This document shows positions 47,015 to 52,694 of a stretch of 64,000 nt of DNA, piece by piece. The translations under genes were made by a program, and so were the position numbers. The notes beneath the pieces were generated by a model. It did not search any database. It had not been told where the DNA came from and saw nothing but the letters and a program-made list of their open reading frames with translations. Within the stretch, counting starts at the first letter, position 1. The number at the start of each line of letters is the position of its first letter. The stretch is taken from the NCBI GenBank assembly GCA_040758135.1, contig JBFLWA010000001.1, positions 134,713-198,712 of the forward strand, given 5' to 3'. The stretch is from Bacillota bacterium. Its GTDB lineage: Bacteria; Bacillota; Sulfobacillia; JBFLWA01.

Positions 47015-47070
47015 AGGCCGGTAAATGAGCTTGCATGGTTAATGGGACTATGCTATGATATGTTGTGCAA

Positions 47071-47154
47071 GCCGAAGTGGCGGAATTGGCAGACGCGCGG
47101 TGTTCAGGGCGCCGTAGGCAGCAGCCTGTGTGGGTTCAAATCCCACCTTCGGCA
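47071..47154 (+). tRNA. tRNA-Leu (anticodon CAG)
   Basis: GCCGAAGTGGCGGAATTGGCAGACGCGCGGTGTTCAGGGCGCCG...GGGTTCAAATCCCACCTTCGGCA: anticodon loop UUCAGGG; long variable arm. Confidence 0.8.
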
Positions 47155-47157
47155 CCG

Positions 47158-47195
47158 GAGACCAGGTGACTTCATTTATCTGGTCTTTTTTGTTT
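47158..47195 (+). terminator. rho-independent terminator after the tRNA
   Basis: GACCAG-gtgacttcatttat-CTGGTC then TTTTTTGTTTGT. Confidence 0.6.
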
Positions 47196-47346
47196 GTACT
47201 ACCTGCTCCCGGGACCCAGGTCGAGATCGTTCAGATAGTCTCCAAGCTCTTCTACCGGAATGCCACCGAGTACGAGGTGCACCTCCTTCTGCTTCTCCGC
47301 CTCAGCTCCGGCGCGGTTCCCCGAAAACTGCGGATCATCCATGTCC

Positions 47347-47590
47347 ACTACACCGGGACGGACTGCCCTTCGCCGAGGCTTGCGCCAGGGTGATCGGCCC
47401 CGAGGCCGCCCCCGGAAACTACCTTTCTCCTCCAGCCTTCCCCAGGTGCAAAGCTCGGAATGACCGGCTGACCGGAAAAACGGGCCGAATCGCCCCAGAT
47501 CCTAGCCCGGCTCATCCTCCTGGCCAGGTCTTTGTGGACCGCCCGGGCGAAGTCCTCGACCGTGCTACCCCGGGATAGGATGAACGGTTT
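47347..47590 (-). pseudogene. remnant of a TGS-domain GTPase (YchF/DRG-like C-terminus)
   Basis: The minus-strand frame opens right after a TGA and reads 'YVKPFILSRGSTVEDFARAVHKDLARRMSRARIWGDSARFSGQPVIPS...*'. This resembles TGS 'G.T..DFA..IH.dl...f..A.vwG.S.k...Q.VG'. No G-domain lies upstream. Confidence 0.3.
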
Positions 47591-47772: not shown

Positions 47773-49122
47773 GTGAGGGCAGCGCGCAATACCAGGCTAG
47801 TGGCAGCGACTATGGCCGCTGCGCTGCTGGCGGTCACTGTCTACCCCTACCTGGCCCCCGCCCCGGCAGGCGATTATCGTCCCTTCCCGGAGCTGGACCC
47901 AGACGACCGGGTGCTCATCCTGGCTCCACACCCCGATGACGAGATTCTGGGGACAGCCGGCCTGATGATGGCAGCTCAGGCCGTCGGTGCCGAGGTCCGC
48001 ATAGTCCTGGTCACCAGTGGAGACGGTTACTCCTGGGCAGCCCGGGCCTGGCTGAAGAAGACAAATGTCTCCCGCGATGATCTCATCGCCTTCGGCCAAG
48101 TGCGGGAAGCTGAGTCACGGACGGCCTTGGCCCGGTTGGGGGTGGAGGAATTCGCCCTGCAATACCTGGGCTATCCGGACCGGGGTCTAGCTGCTCTGTG
48201 GGAGGCCCACTGGGAAGTTCCGGCCACCAGCCGGTTCACCGGTCGCAGCAGTGACCCCGAAGGGAACAGTACTTACACCGGAAGCGAGCTGCTGCGCCGT
48301 CTGGAGCAGATCCTCAGCGGCTACCAGCCCACCGTCCTGCTGCTTCCCCATCCATTGGATGCCCATAGCGACCATTGGGCGCTGGCTGGCTTTACTCTCC
48401 AGGCCTTAGCCCGGCAATCCACAGGATGGGGTTCGAAGCCCCGCGTCGTGGCCGGCTATCTGGTGCACCGTGGCGCCTGGCCGTTACCCCGGGCCTATCG
48501 TCCCGGAGCGGGCCTCTATCCGCCCGGCACCCTGCGCGACCTGGATCTGGAGTGGATGGTCCTGCCTCTATCGTCAGAAGCGGTGGCCAAGAAGCGCGAG
48601 GCGATTGCCGCTTTTGCCACCCAGCGCCGCATGATGCCCGCCTACCTTGATAGTTTCGCCCGGGCTAATGAGCTGTTCGGCGAGGTGAAGGGCGTCATCC
48701 TCGCAGAGGATTCTGGCGCGGTCGACGGGGTGCGGATCTGGCGCGATCCCCGGAGTGACACCATTATCAGACGGTTGGCACCGTCGGTTGACATTGCTGA
48801 GGTCTGGGCGAGATGGGCTGGAGACCAGATTACCGTAACCGCGTACAGCCGCGGTCGGCTGGCGACTCTGGCCCGCGGCCGATTGCTGGTGACCGCCCTG
48901 CGACAGTTGACCGCGCCCACTACCATCACTGTTATGCCGGCTTCCGCCGGGGGGCTGCGGCTGGTCTACCGTGGCCAGGTTCGGCTGGATCCGGGCACCT
49001 GCGAGCTGTTGGTCGTCTTCCAGACCAGGCTTGGCTGGTGGGGGTTGGATCAGACCCCGGCCATCCTGCTCATCCTGGACAGAGGAGGTGGGCTCAGTGA
49101 TCCGGCTGGCTGGCCCCGGTGA
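47773..49122 (+). CDS. LmbE/PIG-L family N-acetylglucosaminyl deacetylase with about 200-aa C-terminal extension
   Basis: GTG 47773 preceded by GGGGGGGGAGGGGG; N-terminal TM/signal 'LVAATMAAALLAVTV'; 'LILAPHPDDEILGTAGLM' and 'HPLDAHSDH' PIG-L motifs. Confidence 0.75.
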   Translation: MRAARNTRLVAATMAAALLAVTVYPYLAPAPAGDYRPFPELDPDDRVLILAPHPDDEILGTAGLMMAAQAVGAEVRIVLVTSGDGYSWAARAWLKKTNVSRDDLIAFGQVREAESRTALARLGVEEFALQYLGYPDRGLAALWEAHWEVPATSRFTGRSSDPEGNSTYTGSELLRRLEQILSGYQPTVLLLPHPLDAHSDHWALAGFTLQALARQSTGWGSKPRVVAGYLVHRGAWPLPRAYRPGAGLYPPGTLRDLDLEWMVLPLSSEAVAKKREAIAAFATQRRMMPAYLDSFARANELFGEVKGVILAEDSGAVDGVRIWRDPRSDTIIRRLAPSVDIAEVWARWAGDQITVTAYSRGRLATLARGRLLVTALRQLTAPTTITVMPASAGGLRLVYRGQVRLDPGTCELLVVFQTRLGWWGLDQTPAILLILDRGGGLSDPAGWPR

Positions 49123-49705
49123 CGAATTCCGAATTGCCGAGATCTTTGCGGCTGCCTTTGCGGACAGCATCTCCTTCTACGCGCCCGGTGGCGTTTCGTT
49201 GGGGCTGCTCGCGCTCTGGCCCGAACTGGCCCGCCGGGCTGAACCCGAGGCCCTGCTGGTGAAAGCAGATGCCGAAGGAACCATCCAGGGCTACATATTC
49301 AGCCCGTCACAGACCGGGCGGCTCTGGCGGATAGCTCTGACCCCTGGCTATCTGACCCGGGTCATCCGCCGTTTGTTAGAAGAAGGCTTGCCCTGGCGCC
49401 GGTTGCCCCTGGGCAAGCTTCTGGGGAATAAGCTATGGTTTTGGCGTACCGACCGCGGTCACGGGACCCCTGCCCGCATCCTCTCGCTGGCGGTTGACCC
49501 TGGGGCGCACGGTCGGGGGTACGGGCGCGAGCTCCTGGCGGCGGGCTTATCCTATCTGCGAGCCAAGGGGTGCCCGGTGGTCACTCTGGAGGTGCGTCCG
49601 GACAACGCTCCCGCGCGGCAGCTCTACCAGATGGCGGGGTTTGCGGTAGTGGGGGAGACCAGGGACGCGCAGGGACCATGGATTATCATGCAAAGAGATC
49701 TCTAG
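49097..49705 (+). CDS. GNAT-family N-acetyltransferase
   Basis: GTG 49097 with GGAGGTG RBS, overlapping the LmbE 3' end by 26 nt; acetyl-CoA motif 'LAVDPGAHGRGYGRELL'. Confidence 0.75.
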   Translation: MIRLAGPGDEFRIAEIFAAAFADSISFYAPGGVSLGLLALWPELARRAEPEALLVKADAEGTIQGYIFSPSQTGRLWRIALTPGYLTRVIRRLLEEGLPWRRLPLGKLLGNKLWFWRTDRGHGTPARILSLAVDPGAHGRGYGRELLAAGLSYLRAKGCPVVTLEVRPDNAPARQLYQMAGFAVVGETRDAQGPWIIMQRDL

Positions 49706-50535
49706 TCCAACAGGAGGATATCGAATACCTCGGGGCTGGGCAGGTCAATCCAGCTATAGCCAGCAGTCTTCTTGTTGAATATATGGATGCCACCCCGATT
49801 GGAGACAAAGCGCCGTCCACCCCACTGCATGGTCTGGTGCAGGTTGGTGCCGCGCATCTGGCTTTCCCCCAGGTAAATGCATTCATCGTCCACGGCCAGA
49901 CCCCGGGCGTAGCCGTTAATGTTGGCCACCGGCTGCCCCTGGCAGCAGGCATGGCCCTTCACGCTCTCACAGTGGTAGATCTCATTATTGAACAGGTAGA
50001 CATCGTGGATGACTTCCGCCCCTGAGATCAGGACCTTCCCCCAGCTCAGGCCCTTCTTGTTGAGTTCGACCACACCGCCATCGTAGTGGTAGTTCTTGCC
50101 CTTGATCCGATTGGTCAGTGACCACATGGAGACTAGAATACGGTCGGGGAGGACGAGGATATCGTTGATCCAGTGTCCGTTGCTTTCCTCGGTGAAGGTT
50201 TGCCGGGCGACCACCTTCCAGCCGCGGTGGACATCGAAGGCGACCACTGTATTGCTGGCCGAACAGGTGGCATAGAGCCAACCGTTCTTCGGATCGAAAC
50301 TGATCCCGTGCAGGTCTCGGCCGGGAAAGTCGAAACTGCTGACGGTGCTGAAGTCCCGCAGATCCAGGGCCTGAAAACCTAGTTGGCAATTGGCCACGAA
50401 GACCAGGCCATCACCGATGTCGACACCCCGCAGTTCGTCGGAGAGATGCCGGGTGACGGTGCCGTCCCGGGCAATGGTATAGAGGCTGCCACCCGCGTGA
50501 CAGCAGCTTACCAATAAGCGTCGCGTAAGTATCAC
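49702..50535 (-). CDS. small beta-propeller protein of unknown function (uncharacterised conserved family)
   Basis: 277 aa; repeated blade-like segments 'WLYATCSASNTVVAFD', 'HWINDILVLPDRILV', 'YHYDGGVVE'; 3' end overlaps the convergent GNAT by 4 nt; start overlaps the sat stop. Confidence 0.55.
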   Translation of the reverse strand: MILTRRLLVSCCHAGGSLYTIARDGTVTRHLSDELRGVDIGDGLVFVANCQLGFQALDLRDFSTVSSFDFPGRDLHGISFDPKNGWLYATCSASNTVVAFDVHRGWKVVARQTFTEESNGHWINDILVLPDRILVSMWSLTNRIKGKNYHYDGGVVELNKKGLSWGKVLISGAEVIHDVYLFNNEIYHCESVKGHACCQGQPVANINGYARGLAVDDECIYLGESQMRGTNLHQTMQWGGRRFVSNRGGIHIFNKKTAGYSWIDLPSPEVFDILLLD

Positions 50536-51725
50536 CTCCCTTCCTCTGACTGGACAAATGGGTCGCCCATCGTCCGGAGCCAGGCGGCGATCTCCGGCCT
50601 TAGGAACCGCTCGAGCTCGACCGAGTTGGTCTCCAGGGCCTGCCGCAGGCGGGTGCCGCTGAAGCTGAAGCGCTCGCTCTCTGGGTGGGGGCAGATATGG
50701 CTATTGGCCACCGCCTGGCAGCGGGCGCAGTAGAAGGCCTCCTCGAACGGGAGGGGGGTAATCCCGAGATCCGGGAATTCTCGGAAGTACTCCTGGGCCT
50801 CATACGGCCCGTAGTAGCAGCCGACCCCGGCGTGGTCGCGCCCCACGATGAAGTGTGTACAGCCGAAGTTCTTGCGCATAAGGGCGTGGTGAATGGCTTC
50901 CTTGGGGCCAGCATAGCGCATCTCGTAGCTGAGGGGGGCCAACAGGGCCCTGGCGGCCGGGTAATACCCTTCAAGCAACCGCTGATAGGCACCGATAATG
51001 ATCTCATCCCGAAAGTCGCCGGGTTTCTTGCGCCCGATAACCGGCTGGATCAGCAGCCCATCAGCAAGGGTCAGAGCCGTCTTCTGGATATACTCATGGC
51101 CGAGGTGCGGCACATTTCTGGTCTGGAAGGCGACGATCCGCTTCCAGCCCCGGGCGGCCAGGAGTGCACGAACCTGACGGGGAGGTGGGCAGACCACCGG
51201 CGATCCTATTCGGGTGGTCGAGGCCAGTTTCACCACATCGCCGGCCAGAAACCACCGCCCCAGCCGGAGCGCCCGGGTCACCCCCGGGTGGCCCGGGTCT
51301 TCGGTCCCGAACAGCGAGCTGATGAAGGTGGCCCGGTCGGGCTCATAGATCTCCCGTACGGCCATCCCGGCCACCGGTTGGCCCCGGAAGGCCAGGATTA
51401 GGCGCCCCCGCTCGCTGCCCCAGACCCGGAGCAGCTGCTGACGGATCCGGTCGTCGGCGTCCAGCACTATGGGCATGGTCCAGGGGAGGCCGTTGGCCAG
51501 CCGGGCCCGGACCAGCACCGACTCGAGGGTAAGGCGGTCCATATAGCCGGTCAAGGGACTGTAGACGCCCGAAGCCAGGTTCTCTAAGTCAGTTAACTGA
51601 TGGCCGTCAATCTCGAGAATGGAATGCCCCCGCTGGGAGTGGGCGGCCAGCCAGTCTTGCCTGGTCGGCTGGTCGGCCACCAACTCCACCAGATATCCGC
51701 CATGAGGATCATTCATTGTCATCAC
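50532..51725 (-). CDS. sat: sulfate adenylyltransferase (ATP sulfurylase)
   Basis: 'QTRNVPHLGHE' and 'GRDHAGVG' motifs; 397 aa. Confidence 0.9.
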   Translation of the reverse strand: MMTMNDPHGGYLVELVADQPTRQDWLAAHSQRGHSILEIDGHQLTDLENLASGVYSPLTGYMDRLTLESVLVRARLANGLPWTMPIVLDADDRIRQQLLRVWGSERGRLILAFRGQPVAGMAVREIYEPDRATFISSLFGTEDPGHPGVTRALRLGRWFLAGDVVKLASTTRIGSPVVCPPPRQVRALLAARGWKRIVAFQTRNVPHLGHEYIQKTALTLADGLLIQPVIGRKKPGDFRDEIIIGAYQRLLEGYYPAARALLAPLSYEMRYAGPKEAIHHALMRKNFGCTHFIVGRDHAGVGCYYGPYEAQEYFREFPDLGITPLPFEEAFYCARCQAVANSHICPHPESERFSFSGTRLRQALETNSVELERFLRPEIAAWLRTMGDPFVQSEEGR

Positions 51726-52257
51726 CCTCCCTGGTCAGCCACTGGTGGTCCTCCAGCCAGCGCAGGATCCGGGCAGCACTGGCCGGGGGTGGCTCTATAT
51801 CAGTATCGACGGTGATCTCGGGATCGGCCGGAGGCTCGTAGGGGGCGGAGATGCCGGTGAAGTCGGTGATCTCTCCGGCCAGGGCCCGACGGTAGAGTCC
51901 CTTGACATCCCGGGCGATGCAGACCGACAGAGGGCATCTCACATAGACTTCGATGAAGCTCCCAATCAGGTCCCGGCAGCGGGAACGGGCCACCCGGTAG
52001 GGGGAGATGAAAGAGGCAATGACCACCACCCTGTGCTGGTTGAGCAGGCGGGCAACAAAGGCGGCCCGTTCCACATTGCGGTGGCGGTCCTTCTCACTGA
52101 AGCCCAGATCGGACGAGAGTCCAGCTCGCATGATGTCACCGTCCAGAATCTGAACCGGCAGACCGCGCTCCTTCAGCCGCTCCTCGAGGACAGAAGCAAT
52201 GGTGGATTTGCCGGCTCCCGAGAGACCGGTAAGCCAAAGGGTAAAGGCTCGTTGCAC
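51709..52257 (-). CDS. cysC: adenylyl-sulfate (APS) kinase
   Basis: 'LWLTGLSGAGKSTIA' P-loop; 182 aa; overlaps the sat start. Confidence 0.9.
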   Translation of the reverse strand: MQRAFTLWLTGLSGAGKSTIASVLEERLKERGLPVQILDGDIMRAGLSSDLGFSEKDRHRNVERAAFVARLLNQHRVVVIASFISPYRVARSRCRDLIGSFIEVYVRCPLSVCIARDVKGLYRRALAGEITDFTGISAPYEPPADPEITVDTDIEPPPASAARILRWLEDHQWLTREGDDNE

Positions 52258-52293
52258 GATGCTCCCTCCCGGCCTGGCTTCCGGGCCAGTTGC

Positions 52294-52694
52294 TCAGGCT
52301 GCAATAAGGCGGTAGAGTGAGAAGAGCCCCAGGAGGCTAGCTGGCTCCAGCTGATGAGCCGCCCCCAGGAGAAGGGGCGGGGTCGGTGGGAAGTGGCCAG
52401 CAACACCAGGCCCAGGCCGGTCACCAGGATCCTGATATATAGCCTTACATAATAGGCCGACAGGTTCACCGCCAGCAGGACGGCGATGGTGGTGGTTAGG
52501 CTGCTTAGGGCAAAGAGCAGAACTATGCGAAGCGGTTCTGACAGGTGAAGGTGGAGCACCGCCCGCCAACCTTGGCGGCAGACCATGAGTAACAGGATGG
52601 GGGTGAGCAGTGTGCCGTACCCCATACCCAGGGTGGAATCGATGAACTCGGCGGCGAACGCCAAGATTACCAGGAGGCCGAGGCTGTATAGCAA
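52294..52694 (-). pseudogene. TauE/SafE (DUF81) anion-exporter family membrane protein, truncated/frameshifted
   Basis: The first ~105 aa show three TM helices ('FIDSTLGMGYGTLLTPILLL'), followed by low-complexity nonsense that overlaps cysC. A hydrophobic continuation 'PPTPPLLLGAAHQLEPASLLGLFSLYRLIAA*' lies in another frame and ends at 52294. Only about half of a normal DUF81 protein is present. Confidence 0.4.

What the first reader, a model, noticed from the sequence alone, without database searches (positions are those of the whole stretch)
47773..52694. Candidate novel sulfur/amino-sugar module: extended LmbE deacetylase plus overlapping GNAT, convergent with a propeller-sat-cysC-(TauE) operon
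A PIG-L/LmbE deacetylase with an unusual ~200-aa C-terminal extension is translationally coupled to a GNAT (26-nt overlap). The GNAT stop overlaps, convergently, the stop of a small beta-propeller gene. The propeller gene is itself the last gene of an operon encoding APS kinase and ATP sulfurylase, the PAPS/APS-forming pair, plus a degraded TauE-type anion exporter. A deacetylase/acyltransferase pair is the logic of mycothiol (MshB/MshD) or bacillithiol-type thiol biosynthesis. The sat-cysC-propeller side could supply activated sulfate or sulfur. There is no cysH/cysI here, so assimilation is not obviously the purpose.
Basis: inference. Interest (0 to 1): 0.65.

Follow-up and report, generated by a model that had tools for sequence, protein, structure and literature searches.

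The report
Sulfate-activation operon with unknown propeller enzyme
A tightly coupled operon for making the activated sulfate donor PAPS ends in an uncharacterised six-bladed propeller protein (DUF4915) that also sits next to PAPS-synthesis genes in many unrelated bacteria. This makes it a candidate new type of sulfate-transferring enzyme, while the neighbouring deacetylase/acetyltransferase pair appears to be a separate unit.

Summary

**Not supported:**
- The PIG-L protein belongs to a widespread clade of about 450-480 aa that mostly carries signal peptides or lipoboxes, so it is exported. It scores far below the BshB/MshB cut-offs.
- No homologue of it or of the GNAT lies near any other member of the propeller family. 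Three other long PIG-L loci have no adjacent GNAT and no sulfur genes.
- The mycothiol/bacillithiol analogy is therefore not supported.

**Supported and extended:**
- cysC, sat and the propeller gene overlap by 8 and 4 nt.
- The propeller is a divergent DUF4915/TIGR03032 protein, modelled as a six-bladed propeller (pLDDT 90). Conserved His/Asn/Arg residues fall on every fourth strand.
- An APS kinase gene lies beside the DUF4915 gene in 15 of 48 genome loci (13 intact). It is also next to it in 3 of 69 metagenome loci and in a Clostridia MAG.
- These cases span at least seven gene arrangements, including TauE-cysC-sat, CysQ-cysC and a CysN/C fusion.
- No canonical sulfotransferase was found among the neighbours I annotated.

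**Best reading:** a dedicated sulfation cassette in which DUF4915 is the candidate PAPS-using enzyme. This is unproven, and no literature was found.

The parts
52258..52694 (-). TauE/TSUP-like remnant. It is the first ORF of the operon and is about half length. The ORF runs on to 52173 in a non-homologous tail that overlaps cysC by 85 nt.
   Evidence: PF01925 scores 19.4 bits, below the cut-off of 32.6, and covers profile positions 1-108 of 237. The N-terminal motif matches the intact TauE genes that precede cysC in L011 and L047. It was not called as a gene on the twin contigs.
51709..52257 (-). cysC, adenylyl-sulfate (APS) kinase, 182 aa
   Evidence: PF01583 E-value 2e-59. TIGR00455 scores 211 bits against a cut-off of 138.7. 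The P-loop GLSGAGKST is visible in the translation.
50532..51716 (-). sat, ATP sulfurylase, 394 aa. Its start overlaps the cysC stop by 8 nt.
   Evidence: PUA_2 and ATP-sulfurylase domains are present. NF003166 scores 421 bits against a cut-off of 387. The QTRNVPHLGH and GRDHAG motifs are in the translation. Gene limits come from the twin contigs.
49702..50535 (-). DUF4915/TIGR03032-type six-bladed beta-propeller, 277 aa, with no signal peptide. It is the last gene of the operon and its start overlaps the sat stop by 4 nt. It is the candidate PAPS-using enzyme.
   Evidence: - PF16261 scores 29.6 bits, below the gathering score of 35.
- Of 1.84 billion representative proteins, 270 match at E<=1e-3. 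All ten checked against Pfam, and all 35 members of alignment A1, carry DUF4915.
- The family-invariant residues H76, N124, H177, S191, R211, G212, G223 and S225 are present.
- The AlphaFold2 model has pLDDT 90.
- Linkage to cysC in other genomes is shown.
49097..49705 (+). GNAT N-acetyltransferase, 202 aa, convergent with the propeller gene. It is adjacent but is not shown to belong to the cassette.
   Evidence: PF00583 scores 58 bits. The best NCBIfam hits are RimI (49.9 against 86.4) and MshD (38.3 against 163), both below their cut-offs. No homologue lies near other DUF4915 genes.
47773..49122 (+). Exported long-form PIG-L/LmbE-family deacetylase, 449 aa. It has an N-terminal signal-anchor, a PIG-L domain and a C-terminal domain of about 200 aa of unknown type. 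It is adjacent but is not shown to belong to the cassette.
   Evidence: - PF02585 scores 85.8 bits.
- The metal and catalytic residues H53, D55, D56, D200 and H201 are invariant in its clade.
- A hydrophobic segment spans residues 9-28, preceded by three Arg. Most clade members have signal peptides or lipoboxes.
- The clade is widespread.
- The C-terminal part has no Pfam or PDB match.

Best explanation
The minus-strand operon (TauE remnant)-cysC-sat-DUF4915 is a dedicated sulfation cassette, not part of sulfur assimilation.

1. Sat converts sulfate and ATP to APS. This follows from family membership.
2. CysC phosphorylates APS to PAPS. This also follows from family membership.
3. The translationally coupled, cytoplasmic six-bladed propeller (DUF4915) is proposed to be the enzyme that uses PAPS. 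Most likely it is a sulfotransferase of a non-canonical fold that sulfates a sugar, a glycan intermediate or a small metabolite and releases PAP. This step is inferred.
4. The proposed PAPS/acceptor site is a ring of conserved Arg/His/Asn residues, one on the inferred innermost strand of each of five successive blades (R36, H76, H122/N124, H177, R211). This step is inferred.

The acceptor in this organism is unknown. In relatives the gene sits in rhamnose/glycosyltransferase clusters, nonulosonic-acid clusters and an adenylating-enzyme cluster.

The convergent PIG-L/GNAT pair is a separate unit: an exported amino-sugar deacetylase co-translated with a generic cytoplasmic acetyltransferase.
For: **Operon structure**
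- cysC/sat overlap by 8 nt and sat/DUF4915 by 4 nt.

**Linkage to PAPS genes in other genomes**
- A degenerate-pattern scan of 185,579 species genomes gave 49 loci, of which 48 are true family members.
- In 15 of those 48 loci an APS kinase gene lies in the same 8-kb block. Thirteen copies are intact and two are remnants. Most lie within 81-650 bp of the DUF4915 gene.
- The chance expectation is about 0.2-1% per block. The probability of 13 or more in 48 is below 1e-15.

**Different gene arrangements**
- Niallia and Ectobacillus: DUF4915-(GT2)-TauE-cysC-sat.
- Paenibacillus solani and P. cellulosilyticus: CysQ-cysC-DinB_2-DUF4915. The P. solani CysQ meets its equivalog cut-off, TIGR01331 293 bits against 228.8.
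- Several Paenibacillus species and a Verrucomicrobiaceae MAG: divergent cysC and DUF4915.
- A Clostridia MAG: a two-gene cysC-DUF4915 unit beside a glycan cluster.
- A human-gut contig: a CysN/C fusion followed by DUF4915.
- Two nonulosonic-acid clusters: cysC next to DUF4915.
- One large nonulosonic-acid cluster: an APS kinase-domain gene about 8 kb from the DUF4915 gene.
- Six of the ten genome-locus proteins most similar to the window protein are linked to cysC.

**No canonical sulfotransferase nearby**
- No canonical sulfotransferase family was found among the representatives of recurrent neighbour families and selected other neighbours that I annotated. None appears in the Pfam-annotated flanks either.
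- Across both scans, cysC ties with NeuB as the neighbour family found in the most loci, 17 each.

**Enzyme-like conservation**
- H76, N124, H177, S191, R211 and S225 are invariant and H122 is nearly invariant.
- R36, H76, H122, H177 and R211 fall on strands 4, 8, 12, 16 and 20 of the 24 strands in the confident model.

**No sign of assimilatory regulation**
- No cysH lies nearby and no riboswitch or T-box is detected.
Against: - No biochemical data exist. No paper mentioning DUF4915 or TIGR03032 was found.
- The linkage is much weaker in aquatic metagenome loci. Only 3 of 69 have cysC next to the gene, although those contigs are short.
- Most family members sit in nonulosonic-acid or other glycan clusters without a nearby PAPS gene, so the family's common function may be broader than sulfation.
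- From my own knowledge, not tested here: SAR11 genomes are reported to lack the cysDNC genes, yet Pelagibacteraceae carry DUF4915.
- Structural matches are only generic propellers. There is no sequence match to any sulfotransferase, including the propeller-fold arylsulfate sulfotransferase.
- Only representative neighbours were annotated, and several have no Pfam match, so a hidden transferase is not excluded.
- The window protein itself falls below Pfam's gathering score for DUF4915.
- The acceptor is unknown.
Confidence: 0.5

Rival explanations
1. The cassette does serve sulfation, but DUF4915 is not the transferase. It would act on the substrate or product instead, for example by binding, epimerising, cleaving or otherwise processing an anionic or sulfated sugar, or by hydrolysing PAP or PAPS. 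The true sulfotransferase would then be encoded elsewhere or be an unrecognised neighbour.
For: - Most family members lie in nonulosonic-acid or other glycan clusters without an adjacent PAPS gene.
- Long forms carry an extra N-terminal Rossmann-like domain, C2185-like_N with a weak match to Methyltransf_14, which hints at nucleotide-sugar binding.
- Six-bladed propellers include many hydrolases and lyases. The fold search gives no transferase-specific match.
- Several neighbours have no Pfam match.
Against: - In the minimal units the propeller is the only non-PAPS gene. These are cysC-DUF4915 in L059, CysN/C-DUF4915 in L098 and cysC-sat-DUF4915 here.
- No canonical sulfotransferase appears among the annotated neighbours.
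- Three loci already encode a CysQ-type gene beside cysC and DUF4915, bona fide in P. solani, which argues against a PAP-phosphatase role.
Confidence: 0.27
2. sat and cysC are ordinary sulfate-assimilation genes, as in the Bacillus subtilis cysH operon, where cysC also accompanies sat. On this view the propeller gene is an unrelated passenger.
For: - sat-cysC pairs occur in assimilatory operons of Bacillota (established knowledge of the B. subtilis cysH-cysP-sat-cysC operon).
- A TauE/TSUP-type transporter remnant could once have imported sulfate.
- The rest of the genome could not be searched for cysH or cysJI.
Against: - There is no cysH, sulfite reductase or sulfate permease within about 10 kb either side, and no cysH motif in the 64 kb.
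- No S-box or T-box leader is detected.
- The propeller gene overlaps sat by 4 nt.
- The DUF4915-cysC pairing recurs in at least seven arrangements across phyla. A passenger gene does not explain that.
Confidence: 0.12
3. All five genes form one amino-sugar tailoring module, analogous to heparan-sulfate N-deacetylase/N-sulfotransferase. PIG-L would remove an N-acetyl group, and the free amine would then be N-sulfated by DUF4915 or re-acylated by the GNAT.
For: - The genes are tightly packed, with convergent overlapping stops.
- Small PIG-L proteins co-occur with DUF4915 in 5 of 69 metagenome loci. One locus reads CysQ-like-DUF4915-PIG-L.
- GNATs appear near DUF4915 in two other locus types.
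Against: - The window PIG-L is an exported long-form enzyme, on the opposite side of the membrane from PAPS, acetyl-CoA and DUF4915.
- Those other PIG-L and GNAT proteins are not its orthologues (PIG-L E about 1e-4; no GNAT hit).
- The two gene sets are convergent, so they are separate transcripts.
- GNATs are too common for their proximity to mean much.
Confidence: 0.06
4. One reading: the LmbE/GNAT pair makes a mycothiol- or bacillithiol-like low-molecular-weight thiol, with sat-cysC-propeller supplying sulfur.
For: MshB/BshB belong to the PIG-L family and MshD to the GNAT family, so the family-level resemblance is real (one search lists weak hits to these models).
Against: - Scores are 5-7 times below the equivalog cut-offs.
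- The PIG-L protein is exported.
- The GNAT has a single domain of 202 aa, whereas the MshD profile is 294 positions long and only its last part matches.
- No glycosyltransferase (MshA/BshA) or cysteine ligase (MshC/BshC) appears in the annotated flanks.
- PAPS is not a sulfur donor for cysteine-derived thiols (pathway knowledge).
Confidence: 0.02

Closest known systems
Dedicated PAPS-plus-sulfotransferase cassettes: NodP/Q-NodH in Sinorhizobium, RaxP/Q-RaxST in Xanthomonas, and the Bacteroides thetaiotaomicron BT0412-BT0416 cholesterol sulfation locus (recalled from the literature, not tested here)
   Same: Sulfate-activation genes (ATP sulfurylase and APS kinase, sometimes with CysQ and a transporter) are clustered and co-expressed with the enzyme that consumes PAPS. 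They lie outside the assimilatory cys regulon.
   Different: Those cassettes contain a canonical alpha/beta sulfotransferase (the Sulfotransfer_1/2/3 families). Here, and in the related loci examined, none was found, and a DUF4915 beta-propeller occupies that place.
Arylsulfate sulfotransferase (ASST, PF05935/PF14269)
   Same: It is a six-bladed beta-propeller that transfers sulfuryl groups, with His and Arg residues in the central pocket (recalled from the E. coli CFT073 structure). This shows that a propeller can perform this chemistry.
   Different: ASST is periplasmic, independent of PAPS (it uses phenolic sulfate donors) and about twice as long. No sequence similarity to DUF4915 was detected by Pfam or by a PDB profile search. 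DUF4915 has no signal peptide and is genetically tied to PAPS synthesis.
DUF4915 (PF16261) / TIGR03032 family
   Same: The window protein is a divergent short-form member. It shares the invariant His/Asn/Arg/Ser/Gly positions and the same fold.
   Different: It scores below Pfam's gathering score (29.6 against 35) and far below the TIGR03032 cut-off (24 against 251). It lacks the N-terminal Rossmann-like and C-terminal extensions seen in long forms. The family has no assigned function.
Bacillus subtilis-type assimilatory cysH-cysP-sat-cysC operon
   Same: Adjacent sat and cysC of the same families in a member of the Bacillota.
   Different: No cysH, cysP or sulfite reductase genes lie nearby, no S-box leader is detected, and the operon ends in DUF4915.
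MshB/BshB deacetylases with MshD acetyltransferase (mycothiol/bacillithiol synthesis)
   Same: PIG-L fold with conserved metal ligands, and a GNAT next door.
   Different: The PIG-L protein is exported and 449 aa long, with an extra C-terminal domain. Scores are 30-38 bits against cut-offs of 163-224. No MshA/C or BshA/C partner appears in the flanks.

Membership tests
DUF4915 (PF16261) / TIGR03032 | Score at or above the curated cut-off of the family model | tested here: not met
   PF16261 scores 29.6 bits against 35. TIGR03032 scores 24.4 bits against 251.5.
DUF4915 (PF16261) / TIGR03032 | Full-length homology to recognised members, with the family's invariant residues present | tested here: met
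   An exhaustive phmmer search gave 270 hits at E<=1e-3, with the best non-self hit at 1.7e-23, aligned over residues 5-276. All 35 aligned members hit PF16261. H76, N124, H177, S191, R211, G212, G223 and S225 are invariant and present in the window protein.
DUF4915 (PF16261) / TIGR03032 | Six-bladed beta-propeller fold | tested here: met
   The AlphaFold2 model has pLDDT 90.1 and pTM 0.89, with 24 strands. Foldseek gives TM about 0.70 to six-bladed YWTD propellers.
Canonical PAPS-dependent sulfotransferases (Sulfotransfer_1/2/3 and related Pfam families) | Sequence match of the candidate enzyme to a sulfotransferase family | tested here: not met
   The window protein and all 35 members of alignment A1 match no family beyond DUF4915, NHL, Methyltransf_14, CoA_binding, DUF5074 and BcsB.
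Arylsulfate sulfotransferase (ASST) | Sequence match to PF05935/PF14269 or to solved ASST chains; periplasmic location | tested here: not met
   No such Pfam hit. ASST is not among the PDB profile hits at E<=10. The protein has no signal peptide, and its N-terminus forms strand 1 of the model. Only the fold class is shared.
Sulfotransferase activity (functional class) | PAPS binding and PAP release with an acceptor | not testable with these tools
   This needs biochemistry. The only evidence here is genomic linkage to cysC, sat, CysN/C and CysQ.
ATP sulfurylase (Sat) | Curated model cut-off and catalytic motifs | tested here: met
   NF003166 scores 421.4 bits against 387. TIGR00339 scores 319.6 against 322.95, just below. 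PUA_2 and ATP-sulfurylase domains are present. The QTRNVPHLGH and GRDHAG motifs are present.
APS kinase (CysC) | Curated model cut-off and P-loop | tested here: met
   TIGR00455 scores 211.2 bits against 138.7. The P-loop GLSGAGKST is present.
TauE/SafE (TSUP) transporter | Full-length match of about 240-300 aa (two homologous halves) above the Pfam gathering score | tested here: not met
   The score is 19.4 bits against 32.6, and only profile positions 1-108 of 237 match. About 145 codons are available before cysC. tblastn finds only the N-terminal motif. I treat it as a remnant.
PIG-L/LmbE deacetylase superfamily | Pfam gathering score and conserved His-Asp-His metal site | tested here: met
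   PF02585 scores 85.8 bits against 28.2. H53, D55, D56, D200 and H201 are invariant in the clade alignment.
BshB1/BshB2/MshB/Mca (thiol-pathway deacetylases) | Equivalog cut-off; cytoplasmic protein of about 220-300 aa | tested here: not met
   Scores are 32.0, 30.2, 32.7 and 21.9 bits against cut-offs of 182.5, 195.25, 224.35 and 277.15. The protein is 449 aa with a signal-anchor, and the clade is largely signal-peptide or lipobox bearing.
MshD mycothiol synthase | Equivalog cut-off; match across the full-length profile | tested here: not met
   The score is 38.3 bits against 163.1. The protein has a single GNAT domain of 202 aa and matches only profile positions 231-288 of 294.

The most novel reading that the evidence does not exclude
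DUF4915/TIGR03032 proteins are a previously unrecognised, propeller-fold family of cytoplasmic PAPS-dependent sulfotransferases. They would sulfate bacterial surface sugars (rhamnose-containing glycans, nonulosonic acids) and some small metabolites. On this reading the cysC-sat-DUF4915 operon in the window is a minimal self-contained sulfation cassette.
Probability: 0.4. Interest if true: 0.8.

Novelty: new variant of a known kind. Interest (0 to 1): 0.6.

Why it matters
Apart from the PAPS-independent arylsulfate sulfotransferases, the bacterial sulfotransferases I am aware of belong to one alpha/beta fold, and genome mining for sulfated bacterial glycans and natural products relies on finding them. 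If DUF4915 is a second, propeller-fold class of PAPS-dependent sulfotransferase, several things follow:

- Sulfated surface polysaccharides and metabolites would be predicted in many Bacillota (Paenibacillus, Niallia, Clostridia MAGs), in Verrucomicrobia and in a human-gut contig, where none is currently suspected.
- A domain of unknown function would gain a role.
- Glycan engineering would gain a new enzyme scaffold.

The hypothesis is directly testable with one recombinant protein and PAPS. If DUF4915 is not the transferase, the repeated cysC linkage still marks these loci as sulfation-related.

Tried and rejected
- Single-sequence AlphaFold2 of the propeller gave pLDDT 40 and was unusable. 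A 21-sequence alignment fixed this.
- The word-indexed homologue search found only 2 relatives of the propeller. The exhaustive search was needed.
I replaced it with a hand-built degenerate DNA pattern.
- The first pattern wrongly assumed a Pro that the window protein lacks, and both early versions had miscounted N runs. The corrected pattern hits the window gene once.
- PDB profile searches gave no informative relative for the propeller, for a long-form DUF4915 member, or for the PIG-L C-terminal domain.
- Literature searches for DUF4915/TIGR03032, for propeller sulfotransferases and for cysC-linked clusters found nothing relevant.
- I looked for island boundaries, that is direct repeats of the tRNA-Leu 3' end. 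None were found, and GC content is uniform.
- No riboswitch or leader RNA is detected for the operon.
- The Inositol_P neighbours in L105 and L118 turned out not to be CysQ (they are inositol monophosphatase/HisN-like). I dropped them from the PAPS count. L101 is ambiguous.
- One window protein look-up found nothing.

Full report
**Observation**

On the plus strand:
- A 449-aa PIG-L protein lies at 47773-49122. PF02585 scores 85.8 bits.
- A 202-aa GNAT lies at 49097-49705 and overlaps the PIG-L gene by 26 nt.

On the minus strand:
- A 277-aa ORF lies at 49702-50535. Its stop overlaps the GNAT stop by 4 nt.
- sat lies at 50532-51716, and cysC at 51709-52257.
- A TauE-like ORF runs up to 52694.

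sat meets the NF003166 cut-off (421 bits against 387), and cysC meets TIGR00455 (211 against 138.7). cysC/sat overlap by 8 nt and sat/ORF277 by 4 nt, so the three are translationally coupled.

The TauE-like ORF is weak (19.4 bits against 32.6) and matches only the first half of the profile. It keeps the TauE N-terminal motif. I treat it as a remnant.

The window comes from an NCBI MAG labelled 'Bacillota bacterium'. A near-identical 37.7-kb contig shows spore-germination genes nearby. It shows no cysH or sulfite reductase within 10 kb. No cysH ECG[ILV]H motif occurs in the 64 kb, and no riboswitch or leader RNA is detected.

**The propeller**

ORF277 hits DUF4915 and TIGR03032 only weakly, below both cut-offs. 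An exhaustive search of 1.84 billion representative proteins found 270 relatives at 25-31% identity. Every hit I checked against Pfam carries DUF4915.

Alignments show the following:
- Invariant: H76, N124, H177, S191, R211, G212, G223 and S225.
- Nearly invariant: H122, G37 and R228.

A single-sequence model failed. A 21-sequence alignment gave a confident model, with pLDDT 90.1, pTM 0.89 and 24 strands. Its PDB matches are generic six-bladed YWTD/NHL/YncE propellers at TM about 0.7 and 12-16% identity. There is no solved sequence relative.

R36, H76, H122, H177 and R211 fall on strands 4, 8, 12, 16 and 20. That is the equivalent strand of five successive blades, which I infer to be the innermost one. 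I therefore infer that they ring the central pocket, the usual active site of propeller enzymes. The protein has no signal peptide.

**Linkage to PAPS synthesis**

I built a degenerate DNA pattern from conserved residues and checked that a version without the Pro codon hits the window gene. I then scanned 185,579 species genomes with the Pro-containing version, which the window gene itself does not match. This gave 49 loci, 48 of them true family members. They are mostly Bacillota, with some Pelagibacteraceae, Planctomycetota and Verrucomicrobia.

Searching the 8-kb blocks with the window proteins found APS kinase in 15 of the 48 loci. Thirteen copies are intact and two are remnants. They are usually 81-650 bp from the DUF4915 gene. 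Chance expectation is below 1% per block, giving P below 1e-15.

The arrangements differ:

| Source | Arrangement |
|---|---|
| Niallia, Ectobacillus | DUF4915-(GT2)-TauE-cysC-sat, the window's gene set in another order |
| Paenibacillus solani, P. cellulosilyticus | CysQ-cysC-DinB_2-DUF4915; the P. solani CysQ meets its cut-off (TIGR01331 293 against 228.8) |
| Several Paenibacillus, a Verrucomicrobiaceae MAG | divergent cysC and DUF4915 |
| A Clostridia MAG | two-gene cysC-DUF4915 unit beside a glycan cluster |
| A large nonulosonic-acid cluster | APS kinase-domain gene about 8 kb away |
| Two nonulosonic-acid clusters (metagenome) | cysC next to DUF4915 |
| A human-gut contig (metagenome) | CysN/C fusion followed by DUF4915 |

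The metagenome scan gave 69 true loci, of which only 3 have cysC next to the gene. Those contigs are short, but the linkage is clearly weaker there.

Other neighbours are glycan or natural-product genes:
- dTDP-rhamnose genes, GT2, GT4, GT61 and UDP-galactopyranose mutase.
- NeuB, CMP-sugar synthetase, DUF4910, ATP-grasp and AsnB-like proteins.
- AMP-binding enzymes with a DAHP-synthase-like protein.

No canonical sulfotransferase appeared among the neighbours I annotated. Across both scans, cysC ties with NeuB as the neighbour family seen in the most loci, 17 each.

**The PIG-L/GNAT pair**

The 'unusual' long PIG-L architecture is common. More than 100 proteins, most of them 440-550 aa, came from Omnitrophota, Verrucomicrobia, Fraserbacteria, Coriobacteriia and others.

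- Most have N-terminal signal peptides or lipoboxes. The window protein has three Arg followed by a 20-residue hydrophobic segment. The catalytic domain should therefore be outside the cytoplasm.
- The metal ligands are conserved, so it is probably an active deacetylase.
- It is equally distant from TT1542, diacetylchitobiose deacetylase, MshB and BshB in the PDB. It scores 5-7 times below the BshB, MshB and Mca cut-offs.
- Its C-terminal domain has no Pfam or PDB match.
- Three other long PIG-L loci have no adjacent GNAT or sulfur gene.
- No homologue of this PIG-L or GNAT lies near the 48 genome DUF4915 loci.

Small, unrelated PIG-L proteins do co-occur with DUF4915 in 5 metagenome nonulosonic-acid clusters. 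An amino-sugar theme is therefore not excluded for the family. It does not rescue the thiol hypothesis, and it does not get round the topological separation in this window.

**Mechanism**

Shown:
- Family membership of Sat and CysC.
- Operon coupling.
- The propeller fold and conserved polar residues.
- The recurrent DUF4915-PAPS gene linkage.

Inferred:
- The cassette makes PAPS for a dedicated sulfation.
- DUF4915 is the PAPS-using transferase.
- The His/Arg ring is its active site.
- The acceptor is a sugar, glycan or metabolite.
- PAP is removed by a housekeeping enzyme, or by CysQ where one is encoded alongside.

I put about 0.75 on 'dedicated PAPS-linked module' and about 0.5 on the full statement that includes DUF4915 as the transferase.

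Main caveats:
- There is no biochemistry and no literature on the family.
- The linkage is weaker in aquatic lineages.
- SAR11 reportedly lacks cysDNC (my own knowledge, untested).
- Only representative neighbours were annotated.

**Comparison and novelty**

The module works like the NodPQ-NodH, RaxPQ-RaxST or BT0412-0416 cassettes, with PAPS synthesis clustered beside its consumer. The difference is that a propeller of unknown function stands in place of a canonical sulfotransferase.

The only propeller sulfotransferase I know of, ASST, is periplasmic, independent of PAPS and unrelated in sequence.

I rate this a new variant of a known kind. The thiol-pathway reading should be dropped.

Noticed in passing
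window 47071-47188 (+) and ORF 47042-47578: tRNA-Leu(CAG) lies at 47071-47156 and is followed directly by a terminator-like hairpin. The 178-aa 'gene' called across it on a twin contig is almost certainly spurious. No att-like direct repeats link this tRNA to the far side of the cassette.
   Followed up: partly
window 47195-47569 (-): The minus-strand translation starts with about 35 residues (GSTVEDFARAVHKDLARRMSRARIWGDSARFSGQPV) that, from memory, resemble the C-terminal TGS domain of a DRG/Obg-like GTPase. It then runs into stop codons, so it may be a gene remnant between the tRNA and the PIG-L gene. I did not check this against any database.
   Followed up: no
P0004-P0100 (homologues of window 47773-49122): A widespread clade of exported, long-form PIG-L deacetylases, mostly 440-550 aa, occurs in Omnitrophota, Verrucomicrobia, Fraserbacteria, Coriobacteriia and a Promethearchaeota MAG. 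They carry a conserved C-terminal domain of about 200 aa with no Pfam or PDB match, and their genomic context varies.
   Followed up: partly
L018, L030, L035, L039, L040, L044, L048, L057, L080, L120: A conserved Paenibacillus/Gracilibacillus cluster contains a DAHP-synthase/chorismate-mutase-like gene, two or three AMP-binding enzymes, DUF4915, two weakly TPR-like proteins and a small protein of about 80 aa. Several Paenibacillus versions also carry cysC; the Gracilibacillus versions do not. It looks like an undescribed natural-product or glycan-tailoring pathway.
   Followed up: partly
L042 4107-4331 and L048 2582-2872: Truncated cysC fragments of 74 and 96 aa lie directly beside DUF4915 in Brevibacillus fortis and in a Bacillota MAG. 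This suggests the linkage is ancestral there and is decaying.
   Followed up: no
L064-L135 (metagenome loci), L003, and the JGI contig of P0288: In aquatic bacteria, DUF4915 is a frequent member of nonulosonic-acid clusters. Its neighbours there include NeuB (17 loci), DUF4910/DUF2172 (11), CMP-sugar synthetase (7), ATP-grasp and AsnB-like proteins, and small PIG-L deacetylases (5).
   Followed up: partly
P0122-P0154, L038 3635-6328, L133: DUF4915 comes in several forms:
- a short form of about 270-310 aa, as in the window;
- a form of about 390 aa with an N-terminal Rossmann-like domain (C2185-like_N, with a weak match to the C-methyltransferase C-terminal domain);
- a form of about 420 aa with a conserved C-terminal extension;
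- proteins of 700-900 aa whose extra regions have no Pfam match.

   Followed up: partly
L017, L034, L054: In Paenibacillus solani and P. cellulosilyticus, a DinB_2/MST-superfamily protein sits between cysC and DUF4915. YqcI/YcgG and PhyH-like genes lie beside the DUF4915 gene in L034 and L054, where that flank is covered. The DinB_2/MST superfamily includes thiol S-transferases. Its role here is unknown.
   Followed up: no
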